Part shown: piece by piece, positions 1 through 64,000 of the stretch | Layout: each line of letters begins with the position of its first letter | Numbering within the stretch: the stretch's first letter is position 1 | Assembly (NCBI GenBank): GCA_973895155.1 | Contig: OZ316892.1 | Location: forward strand, 1,429,223-1,493,222 | Direction of reading: 5' to 3' | Length of the DNA: 64,000 nt | From: Marsupella aquatica | Lineage: Eukaryota; Plantae; Marchantiophyta | Made by a program: the position numbers and the translations under genes | Notes under the pieces: model-generated | What the model saw: only the letters and a program-made list of their open reading frames with translations | What the model was told of the DNA's origin: nothing | Database searches by the model: none

Positions 1-2420
1 GCTTGATTTTGAAAAGGCTTTTGACAGGGTCTGCCATGACTACATCTGGGAGTGCATGCACCTGCTCGGGATCAGTGGGCGCTTTATCATGCTAGTGAGA
101 GCGTTGTTGGCGCAAGCTACCTCTAGGGCACTGGTTAACGGATTCCTCTCGGAAAAGGTACACCTGAAGCGTGGGGTGCGACAAGGTTGCCCGCTCTCAC
201 CACTTTTATTTGTACTCTCCACACAGCCGCTTATGGACTTCCTTGATGCTGAGATTGAGGAAGGGCAACTCAGAGGACTGCGGATCATGGAGGACCTCAT
301 GATTTGCTACAGACTATTTGCAGATGATGTTGGCATGTTCATCCCAGCTACAAAGAAGGACTTTGAGGATACAAGGTTGGCACTTGAATGTTACGAGACT
401 GCCAGCGGCGCCAAACTGAATCTTGAGAAATCAGTGGTTATCCCATTGGCCTTGGAGCTCGGGGGGTCACTATATGGAGGGTCATACATCGCGTGCGACG
501 TTTTAGGGTTTGACCCCCCTAACTTTAAAGTGAATTTTTTTTTTTTGCAAAGCCCTTTCTTTCTTAAAATTTTGTCATTTTTTATTAAAAAACCCCTAAA
601 AACTTTATAGAAAGTATTTTTTGCAATTAAATAGGCCTATCTGTTCTTTAAAGTCGACCAATCAATAAAACATGCCCTATGTGTTCTTCCACCAAACTTT
701 GGAAGTCTTCCGCCACACCCATTTAAATGGGCCTATACTTCGTCGCACGTGATGTGTCACTTCCGTGGAAGTGACCCCCCCGAGCCTTGGAGGAAATACC
801 AAGATGGCTAACTAACATTGGATGTATTATCAGCCAAAAAGGTGAGGTTCAGAAGTACTTGGGCGCACCAATTGGGGTGGGGCTGCAGACAGAACAGCTG
901 CATAAATTCTGTTTAGACAAGATCAGCTCTCGTCTTTCTACTTGGGTAAACAAGCTCTTGTCATTCACAGGTAGAACCCTTTTGGTTAAGCATATTTTGC
1001 AAGCAATTCCTATATATCATGTGATGTATTGTAAAGCCTTTGCTAGTCTGGCAAAGAAGTTGATTGCTCTTAGTCGAGATTTCTTATGGGGATACAATAC
1101 CACAGGGGGAAGGAAGATCCCCCTGGTGGCCTGGGAACGGCTGGCACTTCCTAGGGTGGAGGGGGGTCTGGGATTTAAAGACTTCATAAGTCACTCAGAT
1201 GCACTGCTCTCCCAATGGTTCGCTAAAGCACTTAACTCCCCGAACCTAGAATGGTCTAGAATGCTTGCTGCAAATCTGGCTCTGATGGGCTGGATGAACT
1301 ACAAAGTAATCAGACGAAACCGATATTCCTTTCAAGACAAGTTATTACTGTGTACACCGAGGTCATATAGTGGCCTTCCATGTACGAGTGGACTATGGAG
1401 GAGTTGGACGATGCTCAGAGCACACCTGTCTTTTGAACCTGGCAGGCTTGGGGTTCCGGCGCGATGGAGCATCTATGACACCTTACATTGCCTTGCAGGA
1501 TTTCACTCCCTTTTAAATGAGGCCATTGTTGGGGTTGCCACCATTTGTGGTAGACTAGGAATGAGATCTATTGGGGACGGATGGTCTTTGGAGGATAGAG
1601 CCTGGAAGGAACTCCCAATGAGATGGCACAGCTTGCGGGGTTTCACTTCTGAGCACCGAGCACTTGCACACTCATTCCTAGAATACCTGTGGAACACCAA
1701 TGAATGTAGGACTGACTTTTACCTTTATGCCAAACAGTGGCGGTGGGCTGACAAAACAAAGAAGTTGAAGGATTTCAGGGTGGATAACTGTCGTGTTTAT
1801 GAATTCCTACGGCCCAAAAGCGCAAATCACGGTCATCTTAATCGGATCTGGTCCATTTCTCGACCTGAATTGAGATGGAACTTGGGGTGGTCTAGATTGT
1901 GGGGCTCTGATCTGCCAACCAGGGGCAAGACATTCATCTGGAGAATTATTGTTGGGGGTCTATTCACGGGTGCTAGGGCACTTAGAATTGGTGTGAGCAA
2001 TGGTGATTGCAAGGTGTGTAGCGGTACCTTGGAGACCATCCCCCACATGTTCTTTGGGTATGCATTTGCTATGAGGTGCTGGAGACTCTGCCACTACTTC
2101 TTACGTGAGCTGGGCTTACCAATCGGCCAGGGGCTGCTGACTTTGTTGGACTCTGCTTACGGGAGGGACCCTGAGCAAATTGTCAAACTATTTGTCTTGC
2201 AACAGATTTTATAGAGGTTGTGGCTAGGCAGGAACTCCCATATGTTCAATGCAGGTGGTAGACGTACATTTGATATGGGCCTTGTGCTTTCTGAAGCTGC
2301 TGAGTGCTTGAATGCTGTGAGCAGATGCTCACCCCCTGGTAGAAAGAACACCCGGTTGTGTCGGGCAAAAGATAGGATTGACAGTTTGCGTAGGCTCTGG
2401 CTTAGTGATGGCAGGGGCTG
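1..2420 (+). mobile_element. L1-like LINE ORF2 remnant (RT, C-terminal zf-RVT-like region), interrupted by a MITE and cut at the 3' end
   Basis: RT motifs GVRQGCPLSPLLF and LFADD, then KYLG, WERLALPRVEGGLG and CKVC...ETIPHMFF...WLGRN. Removing 458-784 plus one TSD copy fuses ORFs 56.. and 787.. in frame (PLALE-EIPRW). In-frame TAG at 2212. Confidence 0.93.
458..784. mobile_element. 327-bp MITE with terminal inverted repeats and 8-bp TSD
   Basis: TIRs CTCGGGGGGTCACT / AGTGACCCCCCCGAG; TSD CCTTGGAG at 450-457 and 785-792; AT-rich non-coding interior. Confidence 0.92.
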
Positions 2421-2504
2421 TACCTTGGGTCGAGTTACAAAACGAATATCTCCCAACGAGAAAGAAACGGGAGGCTCATCGGAGGGAGGTTTGTTGAGAT
2501 CCAT
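2420..2504 (-). pseudogene. LTR microprotein B (family F1), truncated
   Basis: MDLNKPPSDEPPVSFSLGDIRFVTRPK matches MDLNRSPDDIPISFSLGDIRIVFRRK; its ATG is 1 nt after the ORF A stop. Confidence 0.65.
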
Positions 2505-2505
2505 C

Positions 2506-2712
2506 TCAATACAAGATAAAAATTGTGCAAGCCCAATCCTGCCCGTAAACTACATAAGGGTATACAATTGGCTCTATTGAATTTAATACCGCAGTTGCAA
2601 ATGCTTCCCCAAAGTGAAAAGTCATATGCTGGCGCATTATCTCTTTTTGGAGTACATGAATTCTAATAAGGAAAGGATTAGGGAGAGGAAAAATAGGTAC
2701 TGGTCTGGGCAT
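2506..2712 (-). CDS. LTR microprotein A (family F1, 68 aa from ATG)
   Basis: MPRPVPIFPLPNPFLIRIHVLQKEIMRQHMTFHFG...EPIVYP...W.C.IFILY aligns without gaps to ORF A at 15618, 26953 and 47365. Confidence 0.7.
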   Translation of the reverse strand: MPRPVPIFPLPNPFLIRIHVLQKEIMRQHMTFHFGEAFATAVLNSIEPIVYPYVVYGQDWACTIFILY

Positions 2713-3369
2713 TATCGTACTATCAAATATTCCATCCAACTAATTTTTATTCTAATGACAAGAAATAGAATCATTCAACAAAAAGATCATCTATTTCAAA
2801 TAAATATCATGCATTGAGTTAACTCTAAGTATATATACATGTAGACGTTTATCTTAATAGGTTGATCTTCTTTTGAATGAAAATACTATCTGAATATCCA
2901 ACTCATACAAAATACCTCTGGCCGAGCCGAAGCTCTAAGCAAGAGTGCATGAGTGGGTCTACTTCATAAGGATTTCACCCAAAAGGGAGCATATGATGTC
3001 AAGGCATTGTTGAGCACTTTCCAACTCTTTAGAACTTAATAACCATCTCCTATCAAATGACAACACTTTCTGAAGGTCCGACTCATACAAAATATCCCTG
3101 GCCGAGCCGAAGCTCTAAGCAAGAGTGCATGAGTGGGTCTACTTTATAAGGGTTATATTCATAGAAGAGATCATCAAGTCCAATGGATTTTTAAGACTTC
3201 ACAACTTAGTTGATGAAAAATGGGGAGTGAGGGGAGAGAGCCCCTCTCCTCTTTATTTACAGTGCTCACACCTCAAGCACACGGATCAAGCATGGCACAC
3301 GGATGGAAGCCATGTGTCACACATCCAAGGCAAGTAAGTGTGCTAGTACTGTAGTTACGTGAGTGGAGC

Positions 3370-3665
3370 AACTGTAGACAGTACACTGTAGTATGCACAC
3401 TGTAGATCGTACACTATAGCATGCATACTGTAGATCGTACACTATAATATGCACACTATAGATCATACACTGTAGCATGCACACTATAGATCGTACACTG
3501 TAGCATGTACACTGTAGATCGTACACTGTAGCATGCACACTGTAGGTCTTGCACTGTAGCATGCACACTGTAGATCGAACAATATAGCATGCATACTGTA
3601 GACCGTGTACTGTAGCATGCACACTGTAGGTTGTGCACTGTAGCATGCACACTATAGACTGCATA
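3370..3665. repeat. ~28-bp tandem array (TGTAGATCGTACACTGTAGCATGCACAC-like) in the U3 of LTR F1
   Basis: About ten degenerate units visible directly. Confidence 0.9.
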
Positions 3666-3743
3666 TGCGAGAATTTAAACTACTATCCTATACTACTAAG
3701 CTATACTTAGGAGGAACTTACTAAACAAAGAATCCCCATGACA

Positions 3744-6275: not shown

Positions 6276-7231
6276 CTGTCATCCATCGGGTAACCCAGCA
6301 GCACCAAAAGAATCTGTGGTGACCAACCTAACCTAATCTATATGCTAACGCTAAGGGCAATCTGTCCCTGTCAGCAACACAAGCACTCACCATGGTGTGG
6401 CATCACTCCAACATCACCAAGAGAGAAATACGTAGCACAACTAGAATGTCAGGTTGCAAACCCGGATCACTCCTATAGAATCAAGCGCCCATGCCAAACT
6501 AACATGGCGCATAAACAGAAAGCATGTGTGGAGAGGATCCAACAACAAGAAGCGGATTTACCACAACTCTCCACACCAATCAATCAAAAATACGTGAAAA
6601 TAATGTCCATATAGTTCAATGTAGGGCCTTCATAATAGGCTTCAAGAATCCTGCGTCAAATATTCAAGAATCCATCGCAAAATAGTTGAAATAGAGTAGC
6701 TAGATGAATTCAAAAGTGCATAAAACCCCTGAGGCCTCATTCCTTGGACATCAAATGTGGAAGGAAGCATGTACAATACACTACATAAGAACTAGCTAGT
6801 TAAGCGCTTGAGGGGAGGAATAGCTTTGGGATGGGTGACCTCTCACTTGTCATTATGCACCAAATCTGACACTCAAAACTGCAACACTTGCAAGTTCTCC
6901 TCACGTACCAGCAAGCTCCTGCTCCGCCCTCACGCCCCTTGTCCAGAGTAACCACGAGTTGCCTCAAAGCCTCAAAACGCCGAGATGAGCCAAAGAGTGA
7001 GCCCGCAACGCTTTGCTATGCTAGATCTAACTTTGGGTTTCGGCAATATTCGCATTTGGCCTCATCGTTCCTTCACGGAAATTGCAGGGCTGTCACCGGA
7101 TTTGACTTAAGTTCAGGTTTTGGCAACATTCACACTCGGCCTCATCGTTCCTTCACGGTGTCCGAGGATTTTTAACTACTCGAGAGGCACTGGGCCTTGC
7201 TACCTGTGCAAATTATGACTACTCACCTGAA

Positions 7232-7441
7232 CTATACAAGCACAAAAATACTCAAAGTTCCCCTTGGATGATCCCCGTAAAGTATTAGAGCTTCTTTCGA
7301 AGATACTATAACATTATACAACTCTTCTCCAAACTTTCTTACTAAGATTTCTCTACATGCTATCTTCCTTCGCACAATAATCTTCAAACTCAAGGAAGAC
7401 GTCAAATTTAATATTGGACTTGGGACCTGATTCAAATCCAT
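7232..7441 (-). CDS. LTR microprotein B (family F3, 69 aa)
   Basis: MDLNQVPSPILNLTSSLSLKIIVRRKIACREILVRKFGEELYNVIVSSKEALILY...IFVLV, homologous to ORF B at 27173. Confidence 0.7.
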   Translation of the reverse strand: MDLNQVPSPILNLTSSLSLKIIVRRKIACREILVRKFGEELYNVIVSSKEALILYGDHPRGTLSIFVLV

Positions 7442-7446
7442 CTTTT

Positions 7447-7670
7447 CTAGTACAAAATATAGATAGTACACACCCACTCTTCTTCATAAGTACCTACGAG
7501 ATATATGAGTGAAATGTTTGAATCATAACCATGATGGCAAAATCTATACCAAACTGATACATAAGCGTTTGACGCATTACATTTTTATCTAAACAATGTA
7601 ATCTAATAAAAAATGGGCTGACAATCACTCCCGGTAATCTATGCACTCTTGGCAACCCATGCAACATCAT
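7447..7670 (-). pseudogene. LTR microprotein A (family F3), 1-nt frameshift
   Basis: Manual translation: SPFFIRLHCLDKNVMRQTLMYQFGIDFAIMVM / SNISLIYLVGTYEEEWVCTIYILY*. Confidence 0.7.
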
Positions 7671-8959
7671 TCACAATCTATGGGAATAGCTAAAGCCTAT
7701 GGTATAAGTTAACCTTTGATAATATATCCTTGATACAGGCGACATAGTCATCCTTGCCAGATTTGAGTATTTAACTTAAGGTGCTCAAGTGGTGGCATAG
7801 CCCTCCATGACCATAAGAAAAATTCTCAATTCCTTCTATCATGAAAACCGGCGGTATAGCCCTCCGTTATATCAAGGCAAACCATGGACTCAACTCTCAA
7901 TAGTGGGAACATAATGCCCTATGGGAAGCAAGTTCCCTTCTATTTATACTTTGAAATGTTGACCACCCATAATTTGATAGCCAACTATTTTGTCCACTTT
8001 CTTAGCACACTATTTTGTAAAGCAGACTACCCACAATTTGCTAGTCCACTTTTTGCCCACTATCTTAGCACACTGTTTTGTAAAGTGGACTACCCATAGT
8101 TTGCTAGCCCGCTTTTTTGGCACACTATTTTATTTTGTCCTATTCTATTATCTTGGCCTACTATACTCTTTTGGCCCACTATACTTATTTGACCTATTAT
8201 ACTCATTTGGCCTACTATACTCATTTGGTCTACTATTATTTTGGTATACTATTTTATTTTTACCTATTCTATGATTTTTACCTATTCTATTCTATTCACG
8301 GAAATTGCAGGACTGTCACTTCTACTCAACAGTCAGCTTGGTTGCGCCCTCAACGCCGTTCTTTCGCGGAAACGTCGAAGCTCGATTCAACAATATTGAC
8401 CCTCATTTCCTTCACGGAAATATAGATCCACAACAATTTCAAGTTCGACGGCAACAAACTTATCAAAACAACAACATTCGTGATCATTTCCTTCCCGAAA
8501 CTCACAGATCCGCAATGTATGATTGCAGATCTATTAACATCCGCACTCAGCAGGCCAGATCTATCAACATCCATCCCTCAACAGGCTCGATCTACTTCAC
8601 AAAAATGCGGGCAACAACATACTGTCCATCAAATGGCAGCACAGATCCCAGATTGACACACTGTCTCCTTGCAAATCTGGTAAAACAATAAGCGATCTTC
8701 AACGATCTGTGATCTCTCTTCTCAAAACAGCCCGACAACAAGACACAAACTACAGCAGATCAAAATACTAACAATCTAGTCAATATGATCCGAGCTACCA
8801 CGAATCCACGCAACAGCTTCAAATAATTTCCATGAGCCGTCGCCAACTCAATCGACACCAAACAAACTTTTGTTTGTACAGTCCGCACAACAGAGTTTGC
8901 ATCTGATCTTTCAATATAATTTTCTCAACAATCGGCACAATGATCCTGGTCAACAATAC

Positions 8960-11859: not shown

Positions 11860-12227
11860 TGTCGTGATAATTCAATTATTCATGATGAAATCATTATCAT
11901 TAAGTATATTATTTAGTATATAGATTATGTTTATATTTTGTTACGGGGTAACTAAATATTTTGACTATTACTTATGTGCATGCAAGGTAAGCAATTATGC
12001 AAACCACAAGGTGCATGCACAAATTGTTTTATTTGCATGCATTAGACTTTGTTTTATGTGCATGCAAGGTGAACAAATGTGCAAGCCACAAGGTGCATGC
12101 ACAAATTGTTTTAGATGCATGCAAATTGTTTTATTTGCATGTATTAGTTGTTTTATGTGCATGCAAGGTGAGCAAATGTGCAAGCCACAAGGTGCATGCA
12201 CAAATTGTTTTAGGTGCATGCAAATTG
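11860..12227 (+). mobile_element. Truncated U3 of LTR family F2
   Basis: TGTCGTGATAATTCAATTATT start and TGCATGCA-rich array, as at 14768 and 26081. Confidence 0.9.
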
Positions 12228-14764: not shown

Positions 14765-15617
14765 CGTTGTCATGATAATTCAATTATTCATGATGAAATC
14801 ATTATCACTAAGTATATAAGTAAGTATATAGGTTAGCTTTATATATTGTTACGGGTAACTAAATAATTTGACTATTATGTATGTGCATGCAAGGTAAGCA
14901 ACTATGCAAACCACAAGATGCATGTGCAAATTGTTTTATTTGCATGCAATAGTCATTTTATGTGCATGCAAGGTGAGCAAATATGCAAGCCACAAGGTGC
15001 ATGCACAAATAGTTTTAGGTGCATGCAAATTATTTTATTTGCATGCATTAGTTATTTTATGTGCATGCAAGGTGAGCAAATGTGCAAGTCACAAGGTGCA
15101 TGCACAAATTGTTTTAGATGCATGCAAATTGTTTTATTTGCATGCATTAGTTGTTTTATGTGCATGCAAGGTGAGCAAATGTGTAAGCCACAAGGTGCAT
15201 GCATGCACAAATTGTTTTAGGTGCATGTATTAGTTGTTTTACTTGCATGCATTATTTGTTTTGATTACAATAGTACTAGCACACATTCCTACGTTGGATG
15301 TGTGCCACTTGGCTTTCATCCAAACATTTGGGCGTAATCCATGCCCTCATGGATTCAATATAAATAAAGTGGTGAGGGACACTCTCTCCTCATTCCCACA
15401 TTTTAATAATTTCCGCGTCGAAGTGATTCTCTTTTATTCTCTCATCTTTCTCTTCTATTCTTTGCCTTACGTACATAGTAGTGGGGCATCCTTTGGCCCG
15501 GATAGCAAAGGAATGAGTGGTAGACTTATAGATGAGACCTTAGGGAACAAGGTCTTTTTGGAAACTTAGGGGTGGGGCATCCTTTGGCCCGGATAGCAAA
15601 GAAACAAGAGAATCATT

Positions 15618-15833
15618 ATGAATCCAGGAGGGAGAGATATCCCTAATCTTCCCCTTTGTAATCCATTTTTGGTTAGAGTCCATCTTTTAGACAATCCATC
15701 CATGAGGCAACATTTAACTTATCACTTTGGAGCTCAATTTGCAGCTGCTGTTATGAGTTCTAATGAGCCAATAGTATACCCAATAGTGTCTTACCGAGAG
15801 GAGTGGGAGTGCATTATCTTTGTCCTTTATTGA
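15618..15833 (+). CDS. LTR microprotein A (family F2, 71 aa)
   Basis: Intact ATG-TGA; conserved across four LTR families. Confidence 0.72.
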   Translation: MNPGGRDIPNLPLCNPFLVRVHLLDNPSMRQHLTYHFGAQFAAAVMSSNEPIVYPIVSYREEWECIIFVLY

Positions 15834-15837
15834 AGTC

Positions 15838-16047
15838 ATGGATCTAAATAGGAGTCCAGATGACATTCCTATCTCATTTTCTCTTGGAGATATTAGGATT
15901 GTATGTCATAGAAAAATTAGTTTTCGAGATGGTGTTGATCCGCAAGTATGGTGAAGTAGGATTTAATAGTATATATTAGTTTCACTTGAACCTTTCTTAA
16001 CACCCACCACCTTTCTTACAAGAGTTATCATTTTGGTTTTAGTGTAG
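15838..16047 (+). pseudogene. LTR microprotein B (F2, 5' LTR), frameshifted
   Basis: Matches 27173-27379 except for +1 (~15931) and +2 (~15971) insertions. Confidence 0.7.
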
Positions 16048-16123
16048 AACTTATGAGCATGCAAGGTTGACTTCATAAGAGCCAACATGCTCTTACCAGA
16101 AAACACGGTCACCCGGACATAAG

Positions 16124-16141
16124 TGGCGACCATACTGGGGA
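16124..16141 (+). other. Primer-binding site, tRNA-Arg-like
   Basis: TGGCGACCATACTGGGGA just after the 5' LTR; resembles the tRNA-Arg PBS TGGCGACTCCACTGGGGA of Tat/Ogre-type gypsy elements. Confidence 0.7.
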
Positions 16142-16199: not shown

Positions 16200-17990
16200 A
16201 TGACTTTTGGAACTATGAGTCTTTGAGTTTTCAATATATCAATAGTCAAGAGGGAAGAATTGCAATCATAAGAGTTGCAGCTGAAAGATCCAGATAGGGT
16301 CACCTAGGCATCTTTCCTTGATTGGGTGACTGACAGAAGTAAGAAGTTGGGACCTCAAGAGTTGATGAGGGAGTTTGTCAAGAAGTTCAATCAACTTCTT
16401 GAGATAGGATCTAAAGTTATCAAGGTCCAGAAGGCTACTCTACTCATCCGGGCTGCTGATGAGAAGCTTCAGGATGAGTTAGAGCTTGCTCTTGAACTAC
16501 TGAACCCGAGTCGTGGGGCTAATCAGCCAACTTGGGAGGAGGTTGAGACTACTGTGCTAAGAGTCAGTCAAAAGCACAGAAGGAAGAAACTCCATCATGA
16601 AGGTGTTCTGGACACAATAGCACCTGTGACTTCTATAAGGAGAGTGGAGAAGATGGAATCAACAATCGGTAGGGGTGAGAAGAGTGTGGACAAGATGGAT
16701 GAGTTGTCTGAACTCATGAAGAATCTTACCATTCTTGCCATCCAAGCTTTGGGACAAATTGGAGGCAACACATCGAGACCACCATCAAGAGGTAGTGGAG
16801 GAGCAGGGAGTTCTATCGGAGGACCAAGAAGCTGGAATTGCATCTGGTGTGATAGCAAAGAGCACTCTAGAAGAGAGTGTGTTGAGCTGTCTGCTACTCT
16901 AAAAGAGAGAATAGTTAAGTTTGTTGAGCATGATGGCATAAGAAAGCTTGCCTACCACGATTCGGGTGAACTTATTCTAGTCAATGCCAACAAAGGTGGC
17001 ATGAAGGTACTAGTGGAGAAGAGAATGGCTGAACATCATAACTCAGCCATTGCTGCAGCTTATGGGGACAACGGTGAGCATGAAACAGATGTCTACACTA
17101 TGTTTGGGGATCCTTCGTCAGTAGGATCCTCAAAGACAGAGAAGAAAAGGTTGGCAGAGTTTGTAAGAAGGAAATCAGGTTGGAATGATCATGTTTTGAT
17201 CTCTGCTTTTACTGCAGAAGTAGGGTCTCTATGGGATTCTATGGTGGAGGAGAAAAGAAAGTCTGTGGAGCCTTTGGAAGAACGTGCTGAAGGAAAATAG
17301 AAAGTGGATTCTGGACCTTCTACTCCTAGGCCATCATCTGATGTGCCAATGAGAAGGAGTGTTCGATTTGAGGACAGAGTAAGCACGCCAAAAGAATCTA
17401 CTTCGACCCCTTCAAAGGAGTTGGAAGTAGTAAAAAAAGGAGAAGGCAGAAAAGAAAGGACCTGGTTGGATACTTGGAAAGGATGTGGAGCAACACATAG
17501 AGTATGACCAGGTTGCTGACAAGTTTTGGAAAGCCACAGTGAGTGGAGTCACCAATGAGGAGTTTTTTGCTTGCATGAACTCCAAAGCTCAAGATGCTTT
17601 ACTTGCAAAGGTGAAGCAAAAAAGATTTTATAAAGAAGGACCTCATGCATTGGGAGCAGAGTTTTATTCTGAAGTTGGAGAGGATGGAGAAGGTTCATTT
17701 TCAAGAGCTAATACAGAGTGTCAAGTGTATCAAGTAAATGTTGAGAAGATCCCTGGACCACAGATGCTAGGGTCTTCAAAAGAGGAGATCCCTGGACCAC
17801 AGATGCCAGAGTCTTCAAAGAAGAAGATCCCTAGACCACAGATGCCAGAGTCTTCAAAGAAGAAGATCCCTAGACCACAGATGCTAGGGTTTTCAAATGA
17901 TGAAGTTTCTGGACCACAGATGCCAGAGTCTTCAAAGGAGGTAGTTTCTGAAGCAAAGATGTCATAAGCTAAGCTATTGGATTTGGGAAG
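16200..17990 (+). pseudogene. gag: G2 gag, decayed
   Basis: Zinc knuckle CIWCDSKEHSRREC; ~5 x 39-bp repeats (KIPGPQMPESSK) at ~17745-17940. Confidence 0.8.
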
Positions 17991-22099: not shown

Positions 22100-25000
22100 G
22101 GTCATGTGTGCCTCTACCATGAAGAATCTTGAATTGGGAGATGGCAAGGAGTCCATCTTGGAACCATTTTAGGCAAGAACTTGCTCAATGGTGGAAATGG
22201 AGCTTGTGGGGATGGAGGGCAAAGCCCAAGCATTGATTGATACTGGATCAAAGGTAAATCTAATGTCAAGAAACATCTATGATCTTGGGCAATGGATGGT
22301 TGATTGTGATACCCAGTGGTCGGTAAACTCAATCAATCGTTCAAAGAATACACTTTGGGGAGGATGTCCAGGAGTTCCAGTGAAGGTTGGCAGTGTGATT
22401 GAGCCAACTAACATCTTTGTGCATGATAGCTTACCCTATGACTTGATTTTAGGGCAGCCTTACATTACTCAAGCTCGATTGAAATACAAGGTTTTGCCAG
22501 ATGGTACTCATATGGCAAAGGTGAGGAGTCGAGATGATTTGCGGATTATCCAATTTCCTATGGTGAAACCTGGACATTGGAGGAATCGAAAGGAGTTGAG
22601 AGGACCTGAATCCAAGGAAGGAAATGAGGATTTCCGGAAGGCGTCTCATTAAACAATGCGGGATGGCGGGGTGCCATCTCTGATGACCCGCTGATGGCTT
22701 GGAATATGAATAGTTTGTTGGCAAGCTCGTTTGAAGGTGAAGGCTTGCATTGACGAATTTCTTATGTGAAAGTGTGTGAAACTACTAGAAAATTCCAAAA
22801 AAAAATTGCGAGGATTGAGGATACTATGCAAATACATGGATTGCTAAAGGAATGTGAGGAGATTGAAGGCCTTCTAGATGAAGAAGGAGTGGTAGTCTCT
22901 TTGGAAGAAGTAATTGAAGGTCTTTCAGAGGGGAGAACTTCTATGGAAATCAGTCATGAGTTGTATGGTGAATTATCTCAATTTGTTGAGGTCAACACCA
23001 AGTACAAAACGGTGGACAAGAAAGTGAGACCAGCGGCACTTCCTTTGCCTTTGGATGCTAAGGAGGTTCTGGAGAAGGCAAGGAAGGAGACCAGTCTTAG
23101 AGATCGGACTAAGATTGGCCATAAATTCACAGAGGGGACCCTTAATCAACTAAGGATTGGCGATGATGGGCTGTTGACAAGGAGAGAAAGAGAGAAGTTT
23201 CGACAAATGATTGGTGAACATGGGTAAGGCTTTTGTCTTTTATCCTGAAGAGATGGGATGTGTGGATCCTAGTGTAGTTACTCCTATGGTGATTTTCACT
23301 GTCCCTCATATTCCTTGGGACTTGAAACCTATTCCGGTGCCCAGGGCTTTGTTGCCTAAACTTGTTGATCTATTGAAGGAGAAACTTTTCACTAGGATCT
23401 TGGAAAGAGCAGATGCACCTTATTCTAATCGTTGGTTTACCATTCGCCAAAAAAATGGTAAACTTAGATTTATTCAGGATATGCAACCACCCAACAAGGT
23501 TATTATTCGCAACACTGGGATAGGACCTATAGTTGATGAGTTTGCAGAAGAGTTTGTCGGTAGAGTCATCTATTCATGTGGTGACCTCTATTCAGGCTAT
23601 GATCAGTTTCAGTTGGCTCAAAGTAGTATAGATATCACTACAATGAGGACACCTTTGGGGCTACTTCGTATATGTACTTTGCCTCAAGGAGCAACCAACT
23701 CAGTGGCACACATGCAGAATGCCATGAATAAGGTACTACATTGTTTTATTCCAGAGAAGACTCAACCATTCCTTGATGATATGCCAATCAAGGGGTGCTT
23801 GGAGGCAAATAAGGATGAGACTATACGAGAAGATGGGTTGCGACAGTTTGTATGGAAGCACATTCAGGATGTGAAGGCCATCTTGAAGAGACTGATTGAG
23901 GTTGGGCTCACTCTTTCTAGAGAAAAATCTTCATTTGGGCTCCATGAAGTCCTGATTGTGGGACAGATTTGTGGAGTTGAAGGAAGGAGGCCAAATGAAG
24001 GAAAAGTGGATGCAATCAATCAGATGAAAGATTGCAGAACATCTTCAGAGGTGCGAAGATTTCTTGGTGCTTGCTTATTTTATAGGGTTTAGATTCCACA
24101 CTTTGCACATATTGCTGATCCCTTGTATGGATTACTAAAAAGAATGTGCAATTTGTTTGGACTGAGGCACACAAGGAGGCTATGCAAAGATTAAAGGAGG
24201 CATTACTTAGCCCCCTTGTTATACGTCCCTTATGCTATGATGGGAGGCCAATCATTGTTACTGTCGATTCAAGCCCTGATGCTGCTGGATGGGCAGTAGG
24301 GCAATATGATGAAGAGGAAAGGAGAATTGCATCAAGGTTTGGGGCTAAGGTCTTTTCAGCAAGACAAAGACATTATCCTCAAATCAAACGAGAATTATGG
24401 GGTGCAAGAACAGCTTTGTGTCAAGAAAAGGTCTACTTGATTGGAGCACAAATAATTCTTGAGATAGATTGTTTATCACTTTTAGGGATGATTGCTAATT
24501 ATGATACTCCAGATATTGCTATGCTACGTTGGATAGCTTTTATCAGAATGATCAATCCTGAGCTTCGACATATTGCTGGAAAAGATAGCCCTGTAGCTGA
24601 TATGCTGTCAAGAGCTCGATATGATCATACTGAGACATCTGAAGCAGTTCAAGTGATGAGTGGAGAATTTGAGATTTTACAATTTCAAGAGAAACTATAT
24701 TCTGGACAGTTGCTTTTGATTGGGAGGTACCTTAGTACTCTTCAAAGGTCTTCTGAATTGACAGATGATGAGTTTCAGCGATTATGGAAGAAGGCTTACA
24801 AGTTCATGCTGAAGGATGGTGTCTTATGGAGAAGATCTTTGAAAAAAGGACATGTTCCATGTAGAGTGCTTGATACTGAAGAGGAGAAGAAAAAGGTCTT
24901 GTGGGACTCTCATGATGCAGTTGAAGCAAGACATCGAGGAGTTAGAGCTACTTATGAGCGGATTCAGAGATGGTATTGGTGGTCAGGCATGTATGTGGAT

Positions 25001-26040
25001 GTGAAATCATATGTTGGGTCTTGTAAGACTTGCCAATATTACTCCAAAGTTTGATTTAGGGATGGGCTTAATCCTACTAGTCCTTTATCATTACATTTTC
25101 AGTGGGCAATAGATGTGGTGCACATGCCATTGGGAGTTAGAGGAGCAAAGTACCTTGTCCTTGCAAGAGAAGATTTATCTTCTTATGTGGAAGGAAGAGC
25201 TTTGACCTCTAATACTACTGAAGCAATATGCAGGTTTGTACTTGAAGATATCATTGCACGTCACGGTTATTTTGTGCAAATGAGAGCAGATAGAGGAGAA
25301 CTCAATTCGGATGAGGCTGCAGATTTCTTTGATCGATTCAACATCAAGCTCAAACTTACTACTGCCTACAACCTGGAAGGCAATGGGAAGATTGAGCGAG
25401 GGCACCCACCGATTATAAATGCCTTGGTAAAGTCTTGCCAAGGAAAAGCATCAATGTGGCCAAACCTTTTACCGTTTGCTCTTTTAGCATATCGGATGAC
25501 ATGCACTTCAACAACAGGATTTGCACCTGCCGAATTGGTCTGTGGACATTTACCTTTGATGCAGATTGAAGAGAATGTTCAAAGCTTGAGAATAATTGAT
25601 TGGGAAGATGACATCACTCGAGAGGATTTATTGGAACGAAGGATTGAGCACTTTAGCCAGACCAAGGAGAAAATTGAGGAGGCTTTATTAAGGCTCGTGA
25701 GAAGAATAAGGAGCAATTTGATAAGACTCATCGTTTGAGACCAATTCCAATCCAGAGTGGAGATTGGGTATTGATCTATGAAGGAGGACTTGAGCAACAA
25801 CATTCTACCTTAAAGAAGTTTGCACGTCATTGGAGATGACCATTTGTTGTTGAAAAAGTCAATCCTAATGCAACCTACTTGGTTAGAGAACTGGATGGAG
25901 CAATTCATCGCACTCCCTATGCAGGAAAGCGAGTGAAATTTTTCAAGCGGCGAACTCACTTTATGGCAAAAGAGAAAGAGTTTGAACCAGATGACTTTGA
26001 AGCTTTGGATGAGGATGAAGATTATCGTGATCTATAGGTG
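22100..26040 (+). pseudogene. pol: G2 pol (PR, RT, RNase H, integrase), decayed
   Basis: ALIDTGS, DLYSGYDQ, LPQGATNS, FLDD, VDSS, H..H/CKTC zinc motif, RADRGE, GKIERGH. Confidence 0.93.
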
Positions 26041-26952
26041 TGGTGCATCCGGAGGTTGCACAGATTTGGTAGGAATGATATGTCGTGATAATTCAATTAT
26101 TCATGATGAAATCATTACCACTAAGTATATAAGTAAGTATATAGGTTAGCTTTATATATTGTTACAGGGTAACTAAATAATTTTACTATTATGTATGTGC
26201 ATGCAAGGTAAGCAACTATGCAAACCACAAGATGCATGCACAAATTGTTTGGATGCATGTGCAAATTGTTTTATTTGCATGCAATAGTCATTTTATGTGC
26301 ATGCAAGGTGATCAAATATGCAAACCACAAGGTGCATGCACAAATAGTTTTAGGTGCATGCAAATTATTTTATTTGCATGCATTAGTTATTTTATGTGCA
26401 TGCAAGGTGAGCAAATGTGCAAGTCACAAGGTGCATGCACAAATTGTTTTAGATGCATGCAAATTATTTTATTTACATGCATTAGTTGTTTTATGTGCAT
26501 GCAAGGTGAGCAAATGTGCAAGCCACAAGGTGCATGCATGCACAAATTGTTTTAGGTGCATGCATTAGTTGTTTTACTTGCATGCATTATTTGTTTTGAT
26601 TACAATAATACTAGCACACATTCCTACGTTGGATGTGTGCCACTTGGCTTTCATGCAAGCGTTTGGGCGTAATCCATGCCCTCTTGGATTCAATATAAAT
26701 AAAGTGGTGAGGGGCACTCTCTCCTCATTCTCACATTTTGATAATTTCCGTGTCGAAGTGATCCTCTTTTCTTCTCTCATCTTTCTCTTCTATTCTTTGT
26801 CTTATGTACATAGTAATGGGGCATCCTTTGGCCCGGATAGCAAAGGAATGAGTGGTAGATTTATAGATGGGATCTTAGGGAACAAGGTCTCTTTGGGAAC
26901 TTAGGGGTGGAGCATCATTTGACCCGGATAGCAAAGGAATAAGAGAGTCATT

Positions 26953-27168
26953 ATGAATCCAGGAGGGAGAGATATCCCTAATCTTCCCATTCGTAACCCA
27001 TTTTTGGTTAGAGTCTATCTTTTAGAAAAGCCATCCATGAGGCAGCATTTAACTTATCACTTCGGAGCTCAATTTGCAGCTGCTGTTATGACTTCTAATG
27101 AGCCAATAGTATACCCAGTAGTGTCTTACCGAGAAAAGTGGGAGTGCATTATCTTTGTCCTTTATTGA
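26953..27168 (+). CDS. LTR microprotein A (F2, 3' LTR, 71 aa)
   Basis: Intact; same family as 15618. Confidence 0.72.
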   Translation: MNPGGRDIPNLPIRNPFLVRVYLLEKPSMRQHLTYHFGAQFAAAVMTSNEPIVYPVVSYREKWECIIFVLY

Positions 27169-27172
27169 AGTC

Positions 27173-27379
27173 ATGGATCTAAATAGGAGTCCAGATGACA
27201 TTCCTATTTCATTTTCTCTTGGAGATATTAGGATTGTATTTCGTAGAAAAATTAGTTTCCGAGATGTGTTGATCCGTAAGTATGGTGAAGTAAGATTTAA
27301 TAGTATATTAGTTTCACCTGAACCTTTCTTAATACCCACCACCCTTCTTACAAGAGTTATCATTTTGGTTTTAGTGTAA
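27173..27379 (+). CDS. LTR microprotein B (F2, 68 aa)
   Basis: MDLNRSPDDIPISFSLGDIRIVFRRKISFRDVLIRKYGEVRFNSILVSPEPFLIP...; ATG 4 nt after the ORF A stop. Confidence 0.72.
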   Translation: MDLNRSPDDIPISFSLGDIRIVFRRKISFRDVLIRKYGEVRFNSILVSPEPFLIPTTLLTRVIILVLV

Positions 27380-27451
27380 AACTTATGGGCATGCAAGGTT
27401 AACTTCATAAGAGCCAACATGCTCTTACCAGAAAACACGGTCACCCGGACA

Positions 27452-28225
27452 CCGGGATATTGAAGACCTCGTCCGGAAACCGAAGCAATGCCTCCCAGAA
27501 GCCGATGTATTTGCCTTTGTCATAGAAGTACCCTGATACCTCTTCGGGTCGATAAAGCTCGCTCTGGGATGGGTACTCAAAGTTAAGAAGATAGTGGTGG
27601 CGGCCTGCTAGGCGGATGGCTCTCTCGTATTTGCGTTTGATCTCGTATCGGCGCGGGTTGGTGTGTTTCAATGAGTCGGCCAAGTGCCCTCCGATAGACA
27701 GGAACTGTGTCCAGAATCGTATGGCCGAACTGGAAAGGATCGTGTGTGACATTCAGAGGAGATAGTAGGTGACTAAGGATAAGCGAGAGAGCTAGGGTCG
27801 AAGTTGGCGCGTGGACTGAAGAACTGGTGGACTGCAAAGGATCGGCCCCCTTTTATACCATGAGAGCTTGTCGATCGCCCGACGCCTCCTTGTCGCTCAT
27901 AGGCCAAGCCTTTCACGCTCGTAGTGTACCAGCCACTTCGCCGGTCCGGGTCAGCTCGTGTCAGTGGCCGCCTCCCAGAGTTTTTTATACGGACCCGAGG
28001 GAGGGGGAAATGGGGCCCCTTACATGCTCGCAACCAGGGCGTGCAAATGGCGACCCGCCGCCAGTCCGAACATGAATTCCCCTTATTGACTAATGATTTC
28101 CTATTCATAATGGCTACCTAAATACTGTCGTTATGCTAATAATAACGGCCTAAGATACCCCTAACACACGTGCTAAGCGTGGTTAGACCGAATCACTCAT
28201 TACCCACCGTACCGGCGGCGTTACA
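27452..28225 (-). mobile_element. 5' part of a second family-X giant LTR
   Basis: Similar to 21233-22001; minus strand starts TGTAACGCCGCCGGTACGG; ORF start MSHTILSSSAIRFWTQF at 27752. Confidence 0.88.
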
Positions 28226-35425: not shown

Positions 35426-35596
35426 TGTCCGGGGGTTTTAAACTACTCGAGAGGCACTGGGCCTTGCTGCCTGTGCAAATTATGACTACTCACCTGAACT
35501 ATATAAGCACAAAAATACTCAAAGTTTCCTTTTGGATGATCCCCGTAAAGTATTAGAGCTTCTTTCGAAGATACTATAATGTTATATAACTATTCT

Positions 35597-41380: not shown

Positions 41381-42959
41381 ATTCTCTAAATTTTCTTACT
41401 AAGATTTCCCTACATGCTATCTTCCTTCGCACAATAATCTTCAGACTCAAGGAAGACGTCAAATTTAAGATTGGACTTGGGACCTGATTCAAATCCATCT
41501 TTTCTAGTGCAAGATATAGATAGTACACACCCACTCTTCTTCATAAGTAACTATAGGATATATGAATGAAATGTTTGAATTTATAACCATGGTGGTAAAG
41601 TCTATACCAAACTGATACATAAGCGTTTGACGCATTATATTTTTATCTAAACAATATAATATAATCAAAATGGGTTGACAACCACTCCCGACAATCTATG
41701 CACTCTTGGCAACCTATGCAACATCATTAACAATTTATGGAATAGCTAAAACCTGTGGTATAAGTTAACTTTTGATAATATATCCTTGATACACGCGACA
41801 TAACCGTCATTGCCAGATTTGAGTATTTAACTTAAGGTGCTCAAGTGGTGGCATAGCCCTCCATGACCATAAGAAAAATTCTCAATTCCTTCTATCATGA
41901 AAACCGACAGCATAGCCCTCCGTTATATCAAGCAAACCATGGACTCAATTATCAATAATGGGAACATAATGCCCTATGGGAAACAAGTTCCCTTCTATTT
42001 ATACTTTGAAATGTTGACTATCCATAATTTGATAGCCAATTATTTTGCCCACTTTCTTAGCACACTCTTTTGTAAAGTAGACTACCCACAATTTGATAGC
42101 CAATTATTTTGCCCACTTTCTTAGCACATTCTTTTGTAAAGTAGACTACCCACAATTTGCTAGCCCACTTTTTTCTCACTATCTTAGCACACTGTTTTAT
42201 AAAGTAGACTACCCACAATTTGCTAGCCCATTTTTTTGGCACACTATCTTATTTTGTCATATTCTATTATCTTGACCTACTATACTTTTTTGACCTACTA
42301 TACTCATTTGACCTACTATATTCATTTGGTCTACTATTTTATTTTTACCTATTCTATGATTTTGGTCTATTATATCTAATAATTTATAAATGACTACTCT
42401 AAGTCACACTATTTATTTTTATTTAGTTTTTAATAATATCTCCTAATAGAGTGAGAAACTCTATGTGAGGTATTCTAATTCCAAAACTTATTTCTTTAGA
42501 CAGTGGGGACAACATGTTTTTTCAACACTAAATATGTATGAAAGACAGAATATGACAAATCTATACACATCAAACATGCATACCCGTGTTGACACATTTC
42601 AAAAATATCATAGCGCAGATCCGGTCCAATGGATGACAAGATAATTTCAATTTGATTGACAGTTGCAAGAAAATGAAAATAATAACACAAGACACTTTTT
42701 ATCATAACCTTGACATCTGTTTAGGTATTATATACTAGTACTATACGATAAATTATGATATACTATGCCAGATTGTGCATGTCCTATGCAACAAATATTA
42801 TGCAATAAAATATGCTATACTAAACATTGTGTTTGCAATCTAGTCATTCCGATTCTCATTGTCTTGCACTTATATTTTCACCTCTGCCAGTTGCTAACAA
42901 CGACGAATAGATTGTTGCATATTTTGCTCATTTGTTGTTGGTCGATTGGTCATTGCATA

Positions 42960-46524: not shown

Positions 46525-47156
46525 TGCCTCAAAAAGTTTTATATACTCTACATCACATGTGCAGCGGCCATGTTCTCAAGTAATCACAACAAGTTGTAGG
46601 ACAAAGAATAGGCACTTACGGAGTGTGTTGGTTGCTTGCCGAGGGTATGGATGATGCAAGTACAATGAAGCTGGATCAAGAATCCTGAAATGTCATTTTA
46701 CACTTTGTGTTGGTACCAATAATACCCGAACAATATAATCTTAATATTGTTCTATTTTTTATTCTTTTGTTTAGTACTTTGAAAGTAACAATGATAAAGG
46801 GGAAAGACAACTATGTGAAATATCACACGCCAAGCCGAAACTCCAAGCATGCGCACAAAAGTTTTCTTTTCCTTCAAGTTGTTACATTCCTACTCCAATC
46901 TATGTGAAACCTATAATTTAGATATTATTTGTAAATGTTGTGAAAATATTTACAAGGAATCGAGATATCCATGTAGAGTATCACACGCTGAGCGAAAACT
47001 CTAAGCATGCGTACATAAAAATCTCTATCCTTGCAAATTCTCCACTCAACTCACAAATGATTCTAAACCGTTAAGGCGATGTCTGGGTGACCGTGTTTTC
47101 TGGTAAGAGCATGTTGGCTCTTATGAAGTTAACTTTGCATGCCCATAAGTTCTATA

Positions 47157-47360
47157 CTAAAACCAAAATGATAATTCTAGTAACAAGGGTAGTGGGTACA
47201 TTAAGAAAGGTTCAGGTGAAACAAAAATACTGTTAGACCCTATTTCACCATACTTGCAGACCAACACATCACAAAAATTAGTTTTCTTACGACATATGAT
47301 CCTAATATCTCCAAGAAAAAATGAAACAGGAATATCATCTGGACTCCTATTCACATCCAT
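47157..47360 (-). CDS. LTR microprotein B (F4), C-terminal frameshift
   Basis: MDVNRSPDDIPVSFFLGDIRIICRKK...SPEPFL, then out of frame relative to F2. Confidence 0.6.
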   Translation of the reverse strand: MDVNRSPDDIPVSFFLGDIRIICRKKTNFCDVLVCKYGEIGSNSIFVSPEPFLMYPLPLLLELSFWF

Positions 47361-47364
47361 GACT

Positions 47365-47580
47365 TCAATAAAGGATAAAGATAATGCACTCCCACTCTTC
47401 TCGGTACGACACTACTGGGTATACTATTGGCTCGTTAGAAGCCATAACAACAGTTGCAAACTGAGCTCCAAAATGATAGGTTAAATGTTGTCTCATGGAT
47501 GGTTTGTCTAAAAGATGGACTCTAATCAAAAACAAATTATGAAGGGGAAGATCAGGGATAACTCTCTCTCCTGGATTCAT
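47365..47580 (-). CDS. LTR microprotein A (F4, 71 aa)
   Basis: Intact homolog of 15618-15833. Confidence 0.72.
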   Translation of the reverse strand: MNPGERVIPDLPLHNLFLIRVHLLDKPSMRQHLTYHFGAQFATVVMASNEPIVYPVVSYREEWECIIFILY

Positions 47581-48599
47581 GATGACTCTCCTATTTCTTT
47601 GCTATCCGGGTCAAAGGACGCCCCACTACTATGTTTAAGACGCAAAGAGCTTCACAACCTTGAATGATAAACACTACAGAATGAGGGGAGAGTGCCCCTC
47701 ACCACTTTATTTATAGTGCACACCAAGAGGGCATGGATCAAACCCAAGCACTTGGATGAAGGCCAAGTGGCAAGCATCTAATACCTAAGAGTGTGCTAGT
47801 ACTATTCATAGTTGGTGAAACTACTTTTAATAGGTGGAACTACCATGCGTTGGTGGAACTACTGTGCGTTAGTGGATCTACTATGCGTTCACTTGATGAA
47901 ACTACTATGCATTGATGGACTTACTATGCGTTGGTGATACTACTATGCGTTGGTGGAACTATTGTGCGTTGGTAGAATTACTGTGCGTAAGTAAAACTAC
48001 TGTGTGTTATGGAATTATTGTAGTTTGTGGAACTACTCATATGCATTGGTGATACTACTATGCGTTGGTGGAACTATTGTGCGTTGGTAGAATTACTGTG
48101 CGTAAGTAAAACTACTGTGTGTTATGGAATTATTGTAGTTGGTGGAACTACTCATATGCATTGGTGAAACTACTGTAGTCCATTAATGTAGCTAAAGAAG
48201 TTAATAAAGTCTAAATTTAATAATCTAACTACTAAACTACTTATATAATCTATAATCTATTAAAACAAACAATTTTTTTATAACTTAAGAGAAAATCACG
48301 ACAATGATATTAGGTTCTCTCATATGAAATACCACACGCCAAGCATAAGCTCCAAGCATGCGCGTGCGTGAGAACCATAATACCCCTCCAAATTCTTAAA
48401 ATAAATTTATAAATGATACAACATGCAAGACAAAAGAAAAGGAAATCAAAAACTCACAAAAAGAAACCAAAACATAAGCAACAAACACAACAAATAGATA
48501 ATACAAAGAAAGAATGAAACAAAGAAAGAAGAAGAAAACTTACCAAAAACCCTCTTCCTACAAAAAGGAAATGAGGAGGAAATAGATTAGAAAATGAGG

Positions 48600-51597: not shown

Positions 51598-52629
51598 CCT
51601 TGGAATGGTTTTTTTATAAATTTTAATACCGCAAAAAACCCCATGGATAGGGGGAACACCAACCCTTAATACATGGAGAAAGCACACAAGCAAGCCACAA
51701 AGAGAGCACAGAAATATAGTAGAGAGCATCAAAGCCCCAGGGAGAGCCTTCCAACAATAAATGAAATAACACCAATCGAGAAAGCACCTATGACCCTCCC
51801 ACAACAGCACCAAAAAAACACAGACCCCTCAATCAGTAGCGCCGCCATTAGAGGGCACAGAGAGAACTCTGTCACCACCCCGCCTCAGCCATTGTTGCCT
51901 CGTGCCCTGCATCCATTTTTGAGCGTGATTCAACCAAGAGCAACGTCTCCCACAGGGTAAACCAACCCCAATCACATGTATGTGGGTGGCAGTCTTAGCA
52001 AGCATCATGCCCATGTCAAATGAATGTCCCTCCTTATTAGAGAACATATGTTCATTTCTTCCTAGCCAAATCATCCAGAGAGTCTGATAGACACAAAAAA
52101 TCCTAGTAGTGTGAATAGGATTCGGCCCAATCGATGCATCGAGAATAGCCAACAGACCGCCCCCAATGGGTAAGCGCAGCTCCGTCAAAATCCTGTTGCA
52201 CATCCTCCAACAGCATGAGGCATGGGAACAATCAATGAACAAATGTTGTATCATCTCCAAGACCCCACAACACAGCTTACAATTCCCCATACCAGCCTGG
52301 ATACGGAGGGCCCTTTGGCCAGTAAACAATCCACCAACCAAAATCTGCCAGATAAAGGTTTTTGCTCTGCAAGAGAGGTCATAAATCCACAACTTTTTCC
52401 ATCCAATGCACCATTCAATTTCTGATCGGTGTGAGGACCAGCACCTATTAAGCAGCACATATAAACTCATCTTGGGTCTCAAGAACTGGTAAACCCTGCA
52501 GTTGGTGATATGAAAGTCCTTCAGAGGCTCAGCCCTGTCAGACTAGTGCCACTGTCTGATCGAAGGATCCTTGTCCCATCTGCAGGCGGTCGACTCCCAG
52601 ATTTTCCCTAGGAACGCTTTGGCCAGCCT
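51598..52629 (-). mobile_element. 5'-truncated L1-like LINE
   Basis: zf-RVT-like region (CKLC...HLFIDC, WLGRN) homologous to 1700-2420; short A-tail; 13-bp TSD TCCGCTTACTTTT (51585-51597, 52630-52642). Confidence 0.88.
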
Positions 52630-63987: not shown

Positions 63988-64000
63988 AGCTCAAATTCTG

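What the first reader, a model, noticed from the sequence alone, without database searches (positions are those of the whole stretch)
26953..27379. Diverged LTR families carry the same conserved pair of ~70-aa microprotein genes inside the LTR
Seen: six LTR copies from four families (2420-3743, 7159-8300, 14768-16119, 26081-27451, 35426/41381-42400, 47080-48303) have unrelated U3 arrays. All place ORF A and then ORF B downstream of the TATA box. ORF A consensus: NPF.IR.H.L....MRQ.L...FG..FA..V..S..(P)..YP.V.Y..EW.C.IF.LY*. ORF B consensus: MDLN...I....K...R..L..K[FY]GE.....I..S.E. Differences between families are largely conservative (I/V/L, F/Y) and lengths are kept. Established: plant LTRs are normally non-coding, and known extra ORFs lie between the LTRs. 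Inference: this is a selected, LTR-borne two-gene cassette that even solo LTRs could express. It could be an anti-silencing factor, a transactivator, or a toxin/antidote-like pair. I recognise no domain.
Basis: partly seen in the sequence, partly recalled or inferred. Interest (0 to 1): 0.92.

Follow-up and report, generated by a model that had tools for sequence, protein, structure and literature searches.

The report
Twin microprotein genes inside retrotransposon LTRs
The end-repeats of a family of plant jumping genes, normally thought to be non-coding, carry two small related protein genes that selection has kept intact across very distant families; they likely make a two-part helper protein of an undescribed kind that would assist the element's own RNA, though no expression or function has been shown.

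Summary
Confirmed. ORF A (26953-27168, 71 aa) and ORF B (27173-27379, 68 aa) lie inside the 3' LTR of a Phygy-like Ty3/gypsy element, downstream of the TATA box. All six LTR copies in the window carry the pair; only this one has both intact. Between distant families synonymous sites are near saturation while dN stays lower (omega about 0.1-0.5); the coding frame beats all five others in 9 of 9 gap-free tests, and no RNA structure explains it. New here: A and B are ancient paralogues (hhalign 91.6%) with the same predicted beta-alpha-alpha-beta-beta fold; 85 relatives at under 50% identity split into A and B clades; A's stop precedes B's start by 1-10 nt in 19 of 22 testable relatives; fused forms exist. 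The only named host of a relative is the liverwort Riccia. No Pfam, PHROG, PDB or fold match. Best reading: a translationally coupled accessory heterodimer acting on the element's RNA or particle (inferred, about 0.4). Expression, binding and LTR location outside this window are untested. The scan earlier noted single LTR-internal genes in two other genomes, not this family.

The parts
26081..27451 (+). 3' LTR of the gypsy element (family F1, copy a); TG...CA ends; right flank CCGG
   Evidence: 94% identical to 14768-16119; follows the integrase tail
26194..26597 (+). U3 tandem array, 99-bp unit, 4 copies
26694..26703 (+). TATA box TATAAATAAA, overlapping an AATAAA; followed by a short G/C hairpin (about 26707-26728) also seen in F2 and F3
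   Evidence: promoter and poly(A) roles are inferred
26953..27168 (+). ORF A, 71 aa, intact
   Evidence: model pLDDT 75
27173..27379 (+). ORF B, 68 aa, intact; paralogue of A; stop 72 nt from the LTR end
   Evidence: model pLDDT 84
14768..16119 (+). 5' LTR (F1b): A 15618-15833 intact, B 15838-16047 broken by frameshifts
16124..16141 (+). Primer binding site (TGG-start, 4 nt after the LTR)
   Evidence: sequence; tRNA identity not tested
16308..17967 (+). Gag remnant with a CCHC knuckle, N-terminal part damaged
   Evidence: translation; no Pfam hit; assignment by motif
22173..26038 (+). Protease, RT, RNase H, integrase in gypsy order, with stops and frameshifts; no chromodomain or extra RNase H detected
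   Evidence: Pfam RVT_1, RT_RNaseH, Integrase_H2C2, rve
47080..48303 (-). LTR F2: A 47580-47365 intact and the first AUG after the TATA box; B 47360-47154 frameshifted near codon 55
2420..3743 (-). LTR F3, cut off inside B: A 2712-2506 intact; B 2504-2421 (28 codons left)
7159..8297 (-). Solo LTR F4a between CCGT/CCGT target duplications, 5' end damaged: A 7670-7447 frameshifted; B 7441-7232 intact (69 aa), stop 73 nt from LTR end
41385..42400 (-). LTR F4b, 5' part: A 41727-41504 frameshifted; B 41498-41385 interrupted by a copia element
35426..35596 (-). LTR F4b, 3' part with the rest of B
11860..12226 (+). U3-only fragment of an F1 LTR, no A or B

Best explanation
ORFs A and B are two paralogous protein genes held by purifying selection inside the LTR of Phygy-like gypsy retrotransposons, and they are likely translated one after the other from the 5' end of the element's RNA to form a predicted A-B heterodimer that would act as the element's own accessory factor on its RNA or particle. 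Shown: coding selection, paralogy, fixed order, 1-10 nt stop-start spacing, position downstream of the TATA box and about 72 nt before the LTR end. Predicted: a small beta-alpha-alpha-beta-beta fold with a hydrophobic last strand and conserved Arg/Lys on strand 1 and helix 1. Inferred: ribosomes make A, then reinitiate at B, giving matched amounts; the subunits pair; the basic face binds the genomic RNA (or Gag) and helps unspliced RNA be exported, kept or packaged, much as the small ORFs ahead of the polyprotein do in plant pararetroviruses; Gag, third on that RNA, would need a spliced or separately started mRNA. The coding-cassette part I put at about 0.93, heterodimer at about 0.65, RNA/particle role at about 0.4.
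For: Selection: (coding frame lowest pN/pS of six frames in 9 of 9 gap-free blocks; codon position 2 least and 3 most changed in 9 of 9). Not RNA structure: folding z from -1.0 to +1.05 in 6 of 6 ORF stretches; none of 11 Rfam matches reaches its gathering score. Paralogy: hhalign 91.6%, E 8e-7; same predicted elements; A and B clades split at SH-aLRT 96. Coupling: 19 of 22 B relatives with an upstream extension can encode an A-type C-terminus plus stop in a shifted frame 1-10 nt before the B start (p<=0.05 against 200 shuffles; 16 of 19 after collapsing near-duplicates). Single-chain two-domain forms: 7 of 98 proteins, one cluster seen on 7 and 4 contigs. Conserved K26 (62 of 70), R30 (48 of 70), G38 (63), P51 (64); B median pI 9.3, no clear membrane helix. 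Three Riccia gene models join an A-side domain to CCHC zinc knuckles. Proteins stay conserved where U3 arrays are unrelated, pointing to a conserved partner rather than the arrays.
Against: No expression, translation or binding data. Leaders of F1, F3 and F4a hold 2-16 upstream AUGs (only F2 has none), which hinders simple scanning to A. A and B are not depleted of internal AUGs (5 of 6 ORFs as expected by chance), so badnavirus-type leaky scanning is not supported. A is neutral on median (pI 6.9) and the family has no known nucleic-acid-binding motif. The fusions may be read-through mutants, and the best-supported one joins two B-side domains; the Riccia knuckle fusion may be a gene-model artefact. 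Model pTM is only 0.50 and 0.62. That relatives outside this window sit in LTRs was not seen.
Confidence: 0.42

Rival explanations
1. A and B form a nuclear anti-silencing factor or transactivator that keeps the LTR promoter on, by binding the core promoter, the hairpin next to the TATA box, or a host silencing protein.
For: Genes sit directly behind the promoter and would be the first products; core promoter and hairpin are conserved in F1, F2, F3; small dimeric basic proteins often bind DNA (own knowledge); nuclear roles are proposed for other plant extra ORFs (PMC7264820).
Against: F1 and F2 keep 80%/70% identical proteins over unrelated U3 arrays, and F4's core promoter does not align to F1 above shuffles while its proteins stay homologous. 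Change is conservative, not arms-race-like.
Confidence: 0.25
2. A and B serve another step of the element's cycle through protein contacts: copy-number control, integrase or CpG-site targeting, or a host-protein adaptor role.
For: 7 of 8 outer LTR flanks are NCGN and no chromodomain is detected; conserved surface residues fit a conserved protein partner.
Against: A 4-bp target preference is normally set by integrase (own knowledge); nothing ties A or B to integrase.
Confidence: 0.16
3. The ORFs mainly act in cis as translated upstream ORFs that throttle Gag-Pol translation from the genomic RNA and so sort RNA between translation and packaging; the proteins matter little.
For: They lie between promoter and gag on the genomic RNA; B ends a fixed 72-73 nt before the LTR end in F1 and F4a although those tails do not align; uORFs sort RNA in pararetroviruses (PMC5902531).
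Against: Amino-acid conservation over the whole length, a confident globular model for B and two paralogous clades are far more than a uORF needs.
Confidence: 0.08
4. A and B are a toxin-antidote (spore- or gamete-killer) pair that drives the element through haploid stages.
For: Tight two-gene coupling and fixed order; a paralogous antidote could bind its toxin.
Against: Copies with only A intact (F1b, F2) and only B intact (F4a) both persist, though silencing or trans supply could hide this; no catalytic or pore-forming signature.
Confidence: 0.06
5. The ORFs are a captured or domesticated host gene pair, or an open-frame shadow of conserved DNA, with no function for the element.
For: Relatives outside the window were seen only as proteins; the in-register antisense frame of B is also nearly stop-free (0-1 stops).
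Against: Selection is between element families while inserted copies decay; all profile hits in the window are inside LTRs; no host family matches.
Confidence: 0.03

Closest known systems
Phygy lineage of plant Ty3/gypsy elements (Neumann et al. 2019, PMC6317226; passages and one supplement row read)
   Same: Gypsy domain order without chromodomain or extra RNase H detected; 4-bp NCGN targets; element about 8.7 kb once the 4-kb insert is removed, against a Phygy mean of 8628 bp.
   Different: Phygy is listed with no extra ORFs, but that survey counted only ORFs of 250 codons or more; the dominant Phygy PBS is tRNA-Trp, and this PBS looks to me (recalled) like a tRNA-Arg end; tree placement not tested.
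Additional ORFs of plant LTR retrotransposons: env-like, antisense ORFs of Grande/RIRE2/Retand, Ogre 5' ORF (PMC7264820 main text read; PMC6317226 passages)
   Same: Element-borne extra genes of unknown function kept across families.
   Different: Those described lie in the internal region and are long; these are two 65-75 aa paralogues wholly inside the LTR, with no sequence match.
MMTV superantigen ORF in the 3' LTR (PMC2191119, abstract read); HIV nef and foamy bet overlapping U3 (recalled)
   Same: A functional protein gene inside an LTR.
   Different: Animal retroviruses, single ORFs, in U3 upstream of the TATA box (position recalled); here two genes lie downstream of the TATA box (R or U5) in a plant retrotransposon; no sequence or fold relation found.
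ORFs I and II of badnaviruses and RTBV (PMC5902531, passages read)
   Same: Two small ORFs in a row ahead of the capsid-RT polyprotein on the RNA that is reverse transcribed, with close stop and start codons.
   Different: Those ORFs are free of internal AUGs and read by leaky scanning; A and B are not AUG-depleted, are paralogues and are duplicated with the LTR.

Membership tests
Ty3/gypsy LTR retrotransposon (host element) | Direct TG...CA terminal repeats with PBS, and PR-RT-RH-INT order | tested here: met
   target duplications of the two F1 LTRs differ (ACGT / CCGG), so this copy may be a recombinant
Phygy lineage | 4-bp target duplication of NCGN type | tested here: met
   7 of 8 outer flanks NCGN, CpG frequency 0.026, P about 7e-11; F4a has CCGT on both sides; definition
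Phygy lineage | No chromodomain, no additional RNase H, size 7.7-10 kb | tested here: met
   no such Pfam hit in the ORFs scanned; integrase tail read; 12684 bp minus the 4011-bp insert = 8673 bp
Phygy lineage | PBS complementary mostly to tRNA-Trp | tested here: inconclusive
   PBS seen but no host tRNA set to compare; by recall it resembles tRNA-Arg
Phygy lineage | RT/RH/INT fall in the Phygy clade of REXdb | not testable with these tools
   no REXdb on hand; RT search of viral contigs found nothing
Described plant additional ORFs (env-like, Transposase_28, PMD, Athila ORF-1) | Location between the LTRs | tested here: not met
   A and B are inside the LTR in 6 of 6 copies
Described plant additional ORFs (env-like, Transposase_28, PMD, Athila ORF-1) | Match to those Pfam domains or a membrane-spanning segment | tested here: not met
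   no family shared by more than 1 of 70 members at E<=0.05; median best 19-residue hydropathy 1.3
Badnavirus/RTBV-type ORF I-II | Internal AUG depletion allowing leaky scanning | tested here: not met
   two in-frame internal AUGs in all 4 A copies; out-of-frame counts as expected in 5 of 6 ORFs
AbrB/MazE swapped-hairpin or ribbon-helix-helix dimeric DNA binders | Sequence profile or fold match | tested here: inconclusive
   hhalign against a two-sequence MazE/ChpS alignment 0.1%; best fold Z 3.1 and 3.5 to unrelated chains; monomer models cannot show an intertwined dimer
Toxin-antidote element | One product toxic, the other rescuing | not testable with these tools
   needs expression tests; decay pattern is only indirect

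The most novel reading that the evidence does not exclude
A whole lineage of non-seed-plant gypsy retrotransposons encodes, inside the R/U5 part of its LTRs, a bicistronic pair of microproteins that form a heterodimer of an undescribed fold and act as a Rev-like or packaging accessory factor: the first LTR-encoded protein system in plants, spread over at least 85 sequence clusters and overlooked because of annotation length cut-offs.
Probability: 0.4. Interest if true: 0.88.

Novelty: new variant of a known kind. Interest (0 to 1): 0.76.

Why it matters
Plant LTRs are treated as non-coding control regions, and the reference survey counted extra ORFs only from 250 codons up. A selected two-gene cassette in the LTR, with dozens of diverged relatives and no match in Pfam, PHROGs or the PDB, adds an undescribed protein family and an accessory-gene layout (genes copied with the terminal repeat, ahead of gag) not found in the papers searched. 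It raises a testable question on how plant ribosomes read A, B and Gag from one RNA, and gives two 70-residue proteins that are easy to express, fold and pull down. The window holds a second, unrelated LTR-like repeat with its own large gene, which hints that coding LTRs are common in this host group.

Tried and rejected
No whole genome is held, so copy number and genome-wide location were not measured. No sequencing-run data were obtained, so expression is untested. DNA context of relatives: the metagenome scan gave 2 loci from 237 pattern matches, both judged chance on reading; viral contigs gave 0 of 63, 0 of 17 and (RT) 0 of 7; prokaryote genomes 0 of 426. A search for longer fused relatives scored 7992 candidates with no hit, weak evidence since it also missed the known 159-195 aa relatives. 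Family libraries: Pfam none for A or B and six single-member weak hits among 70; PHROGs 0 of 70; PDB sequences best E 1.5 (B), none (A), 0.037 (wide profile, riboflavin kinase, 26 residues). Fold searches: Foldseek no match at E<=0.001 in PDB (B) or BFVD (A, B); VIA-align best Z 3.1 and 3.5; absence does not show a new fold. ESM Atlas gave only sub-0.9 leads that disagree between A (Neuralized/SPRY, 0.82) and B (VPS13 N-terminal, 0.80-0.83): not used. AbrB/MazE likeness not supported. RNA-structure explanation rejected. Leaky scanning not supported; a calicivirus-type UGGGA lies 30 nt before the A end in F1 and F2 only and is part of the Trp codon. Splice-site patterns near A were suggestive in F4a but not shared. 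A C-terminal extension test found shifted-frame MDLN in 1 of 3 A proteins. The A/B distance correlation (rho 0.75, Mantel p 0.002, 9 pairs, five paired only by equal contig length) follows from linkage and says nothing on binding. Rows dropped: P0095 and P0118 (1274 and 993 aa, short weak matches) from the 87 hits. Papers PMC7466625, PMC11899658, PMC6431247 (passages) held nothing on this family.

Full report
Observation. The + strand of 26953-27168 encodes a 71-aa ORF (A) and 27173-27379 a 68-aa ORF (B), four bases apart. Both lie in a 1371-bp repeat, 26081-27451, that is 94% identical to 14768-16119. Between the two repeats are a primer binding site at 16124, a damaged gag with a CCHC knuckle, and protease, RT, RNase H and integrase in gypsy order. 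The repeats are therefore LTRs. Four more LTR copies lie on the - strand: 47080-48303 (F2), 2420-3743 (F3), 7159-8297 (F4a) and 35426-35596 plus 41385-42400 (F4b, split by a copia element). tblastn and a 70-sequence profile find A and B in all six and nowhere else at a meaningful score. In each, the order is tandem array, TATA box, leader, A, 1-5 nt, B. A is intact in 4 of 6 copies, B in 2 of 6, both only in the copy reported.

Selection. Pairwise codon counts give pN below pS in 19 of 20 A comparisons and 15 of 15 B comparisons; the exception is a 29-codon within-family pair. Between the deep families dS is 1.3-2.7 or saturated and dN 0.3-0.9; examples are omega 0.17 for A F1a-F3 (P 1.5e-6) and pN 0.40 against pS 0.76 for B F1a-F4a (P 4e-5). 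Fisher P is under 0.05 in 13 of 15 A and 11 of 11 B deep comparisons, which are not independent. To remove alignment bias I repeated the test on gap-free blocks in all six frames: the coding frame had the lowest pN/pS in 9 of 9, codon position 2 changed least and position 3 most in 9 of 9. Between F1a and F4a only A (score 64, shuffled maximum 32) and marginally B (39 against 36) align as DNA; U3, core promoter, leader and tail do not. The ORFs fold no better than shuffles (z -1.0 to +1.05) and no Rfam match reaches threshold. Within families the signal is weak or absent for A (omega 0.54, 0.63, 1.56), as expected if copies decay after insertion.

The protein family. A and B profiles match each other (hhalign 91.6%, E 8e-7), and both models read strand, helix, helix, strand, strand (pLDDT 75 and 84; B has one more N-terminal strand). 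A joint profile found 87 clusters at 50% identity; I dropped two long proteins with short matches. Of the 87, 46 are 60-79 aa. A quick tree of 103 domains splits them into an A side (47) and a B side (56) at SH-aLRT 96, midpoint-drawn, with many open forks, so the duplication predates the families. In 19 of 22 B proteins whose predicted start lay upstream, the extension can be read in a shifted frame as an A-type C-terminus plus stop, 1-10 nt before the B start. Seven of 98 proteins carry two domains in one chain. Of 30 proteins looked up, only one cluster carried an organism name: three Riccia sorocarpa gene models in which an A-side domain follows CCHC knuckles. No DNA around any relative could be fetched, so their place in LTRs is inferred. 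No Pfam, PHROG, PDB or fold match was found.

The element. Seven of eight outer LTR flanks read NCGN, and F4a has CCGT on both sides. Phygy elements have 4-bp NCGN targets in 100% of cases, a mean size of 8628 bp and no listed extra ORFs (PMC6317226 supplement row); that survey counted only ORFs of at least 250 codons. Without its 4011-bp insert this element is 8673 bp. Phygy occurs in moss and in a liverwort genome (PMC12885004 passages). I call the element Phygy-like and the host likely a non-seed plant; neither is proven, and the PBS does not look like the usual tRNA-Trp site (recalled).

How it likely works. The ORFs are downstream of the TATA box, hence in R or U5. In F1, F2 and F3 the TATA box overlaps an AATAAA and is followed by a hairpin; if that is the poly(A) signal, R is short, the genes are in U5 and are read only from the 5' end of LTR-started RNA. 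Otherwise each LTR could make a short A-B mRNA. This is unresolved. The constant short spacer with no fixed frame (1, 4, 5 nt here) fits termination and reinitiation, not read-through; leaky scanning is not supported because internal AUGs are not avoided (contrast PMC5902531 passages). Coupled synthesis of two paralogues, single-chain forms and a hydrophobic terminal strand suggest a heterodimer, untested. F1 and F2 keep near-identical proteins over unrelated U3 arrays, so the partner is more likely a conserved RNA, element protein or host protein than the arrays. Conserved Arg and Lys, a basic B subunit, the position on the genomic RNA and the Riccia knuckle fusion tip me to an RNA or particle role (0.42), ahead of anti-silencing or transactivation (0.25), other protein-contact roles (0.16), cis uORF control (0.08), toxin-antidote (0.06) and no function (0.03). 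Against the model: most leaders hold upstream AUGs (2-16; F2 none), and nothing was measured on expression or binding.

Novelty. A review of plant additional ORFs (PMC7264820, main text read) describes only internal-region ORFs. Four literature searches aimed at LTR-internal ORFs listed nothing on such a family; the library lacks most subscription papers (for example Steinbauerova 2011, not seen), bioRxiv supplements and repeat databases such as Repbase, any of which may note these ORFs. LTR-encoded genes are known from MMTV (PMC2191119 abstract). Earlier notes of this scan report single LTR-internal genes in two other genomes but none by sequence for this family. Verdict: real, a new variant of retroelement accessory gene with an undescribed protein family; interest 0.76.

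Noticed in passing
window 17991-22001: A 4011-bp insert in the gypsy element with TG...CA ends and a GGAAG 5-bp target duplication, a TATA-like box near 21635 (-) and one large decayed gene (about 21390-18867, -; low-complexity start, conserved middle, coiled-coil end; no convincing Pfam hit). It looks like a solo LTR of an unrelated family that also carries a gene inside. Related pieces: 12227-14764, 27452-28225, 56713-57704.
   Followed up: partly
window 35597-41384: Young copia element (Bianca-like by recalled motif) with an intact 1548-aa ORF and 168-bp LTRs 99.4% identical, inserted into ORF B of LTR F4b.
   Followed up: partly
window 27380-27451 and 7231-7159: B's stop lies 72-73 nt from the LTR end in F1 and F4a although the tails do not align; F4's tail has a strong splice-donor-like CAG/GTGAGT a few bases after the stop.
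   Followed up: partly
window 27049-27519 (-): The in-register antisense frame over B is open for 156 codons here and has 0-1 stops in other family pairs; likely a shadow of the sense ORF.
   Followed up: partly
window 14768-16119 and 26081-27451 versus 47080-48303: F1 and F2 are 87% identical from the core promoter to the LTR end but have unrelated U3 arrays: a U3 swap. The two F1 LTRs have different target flanks (ACGT, CCGG).
   Followed up: partly
window 63043-63990 (-), 62157-62918 (-), 30056-33436 (+), 45519-46575 (-): Further long ORFs without Pfam match (one weak kinase hit at 45519-46025), probably other decayed transposon or host genes; two LINE fragments at 775-2214 and 51829-52542.
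   Followed up: no
proteins P0100, P0127, P0128: Three near-identical Riccia sorocarpa gene models join CCHC zinc knuckles to an A-side domain; real fusion or annotation artefact unknown.
   Followed up: partly
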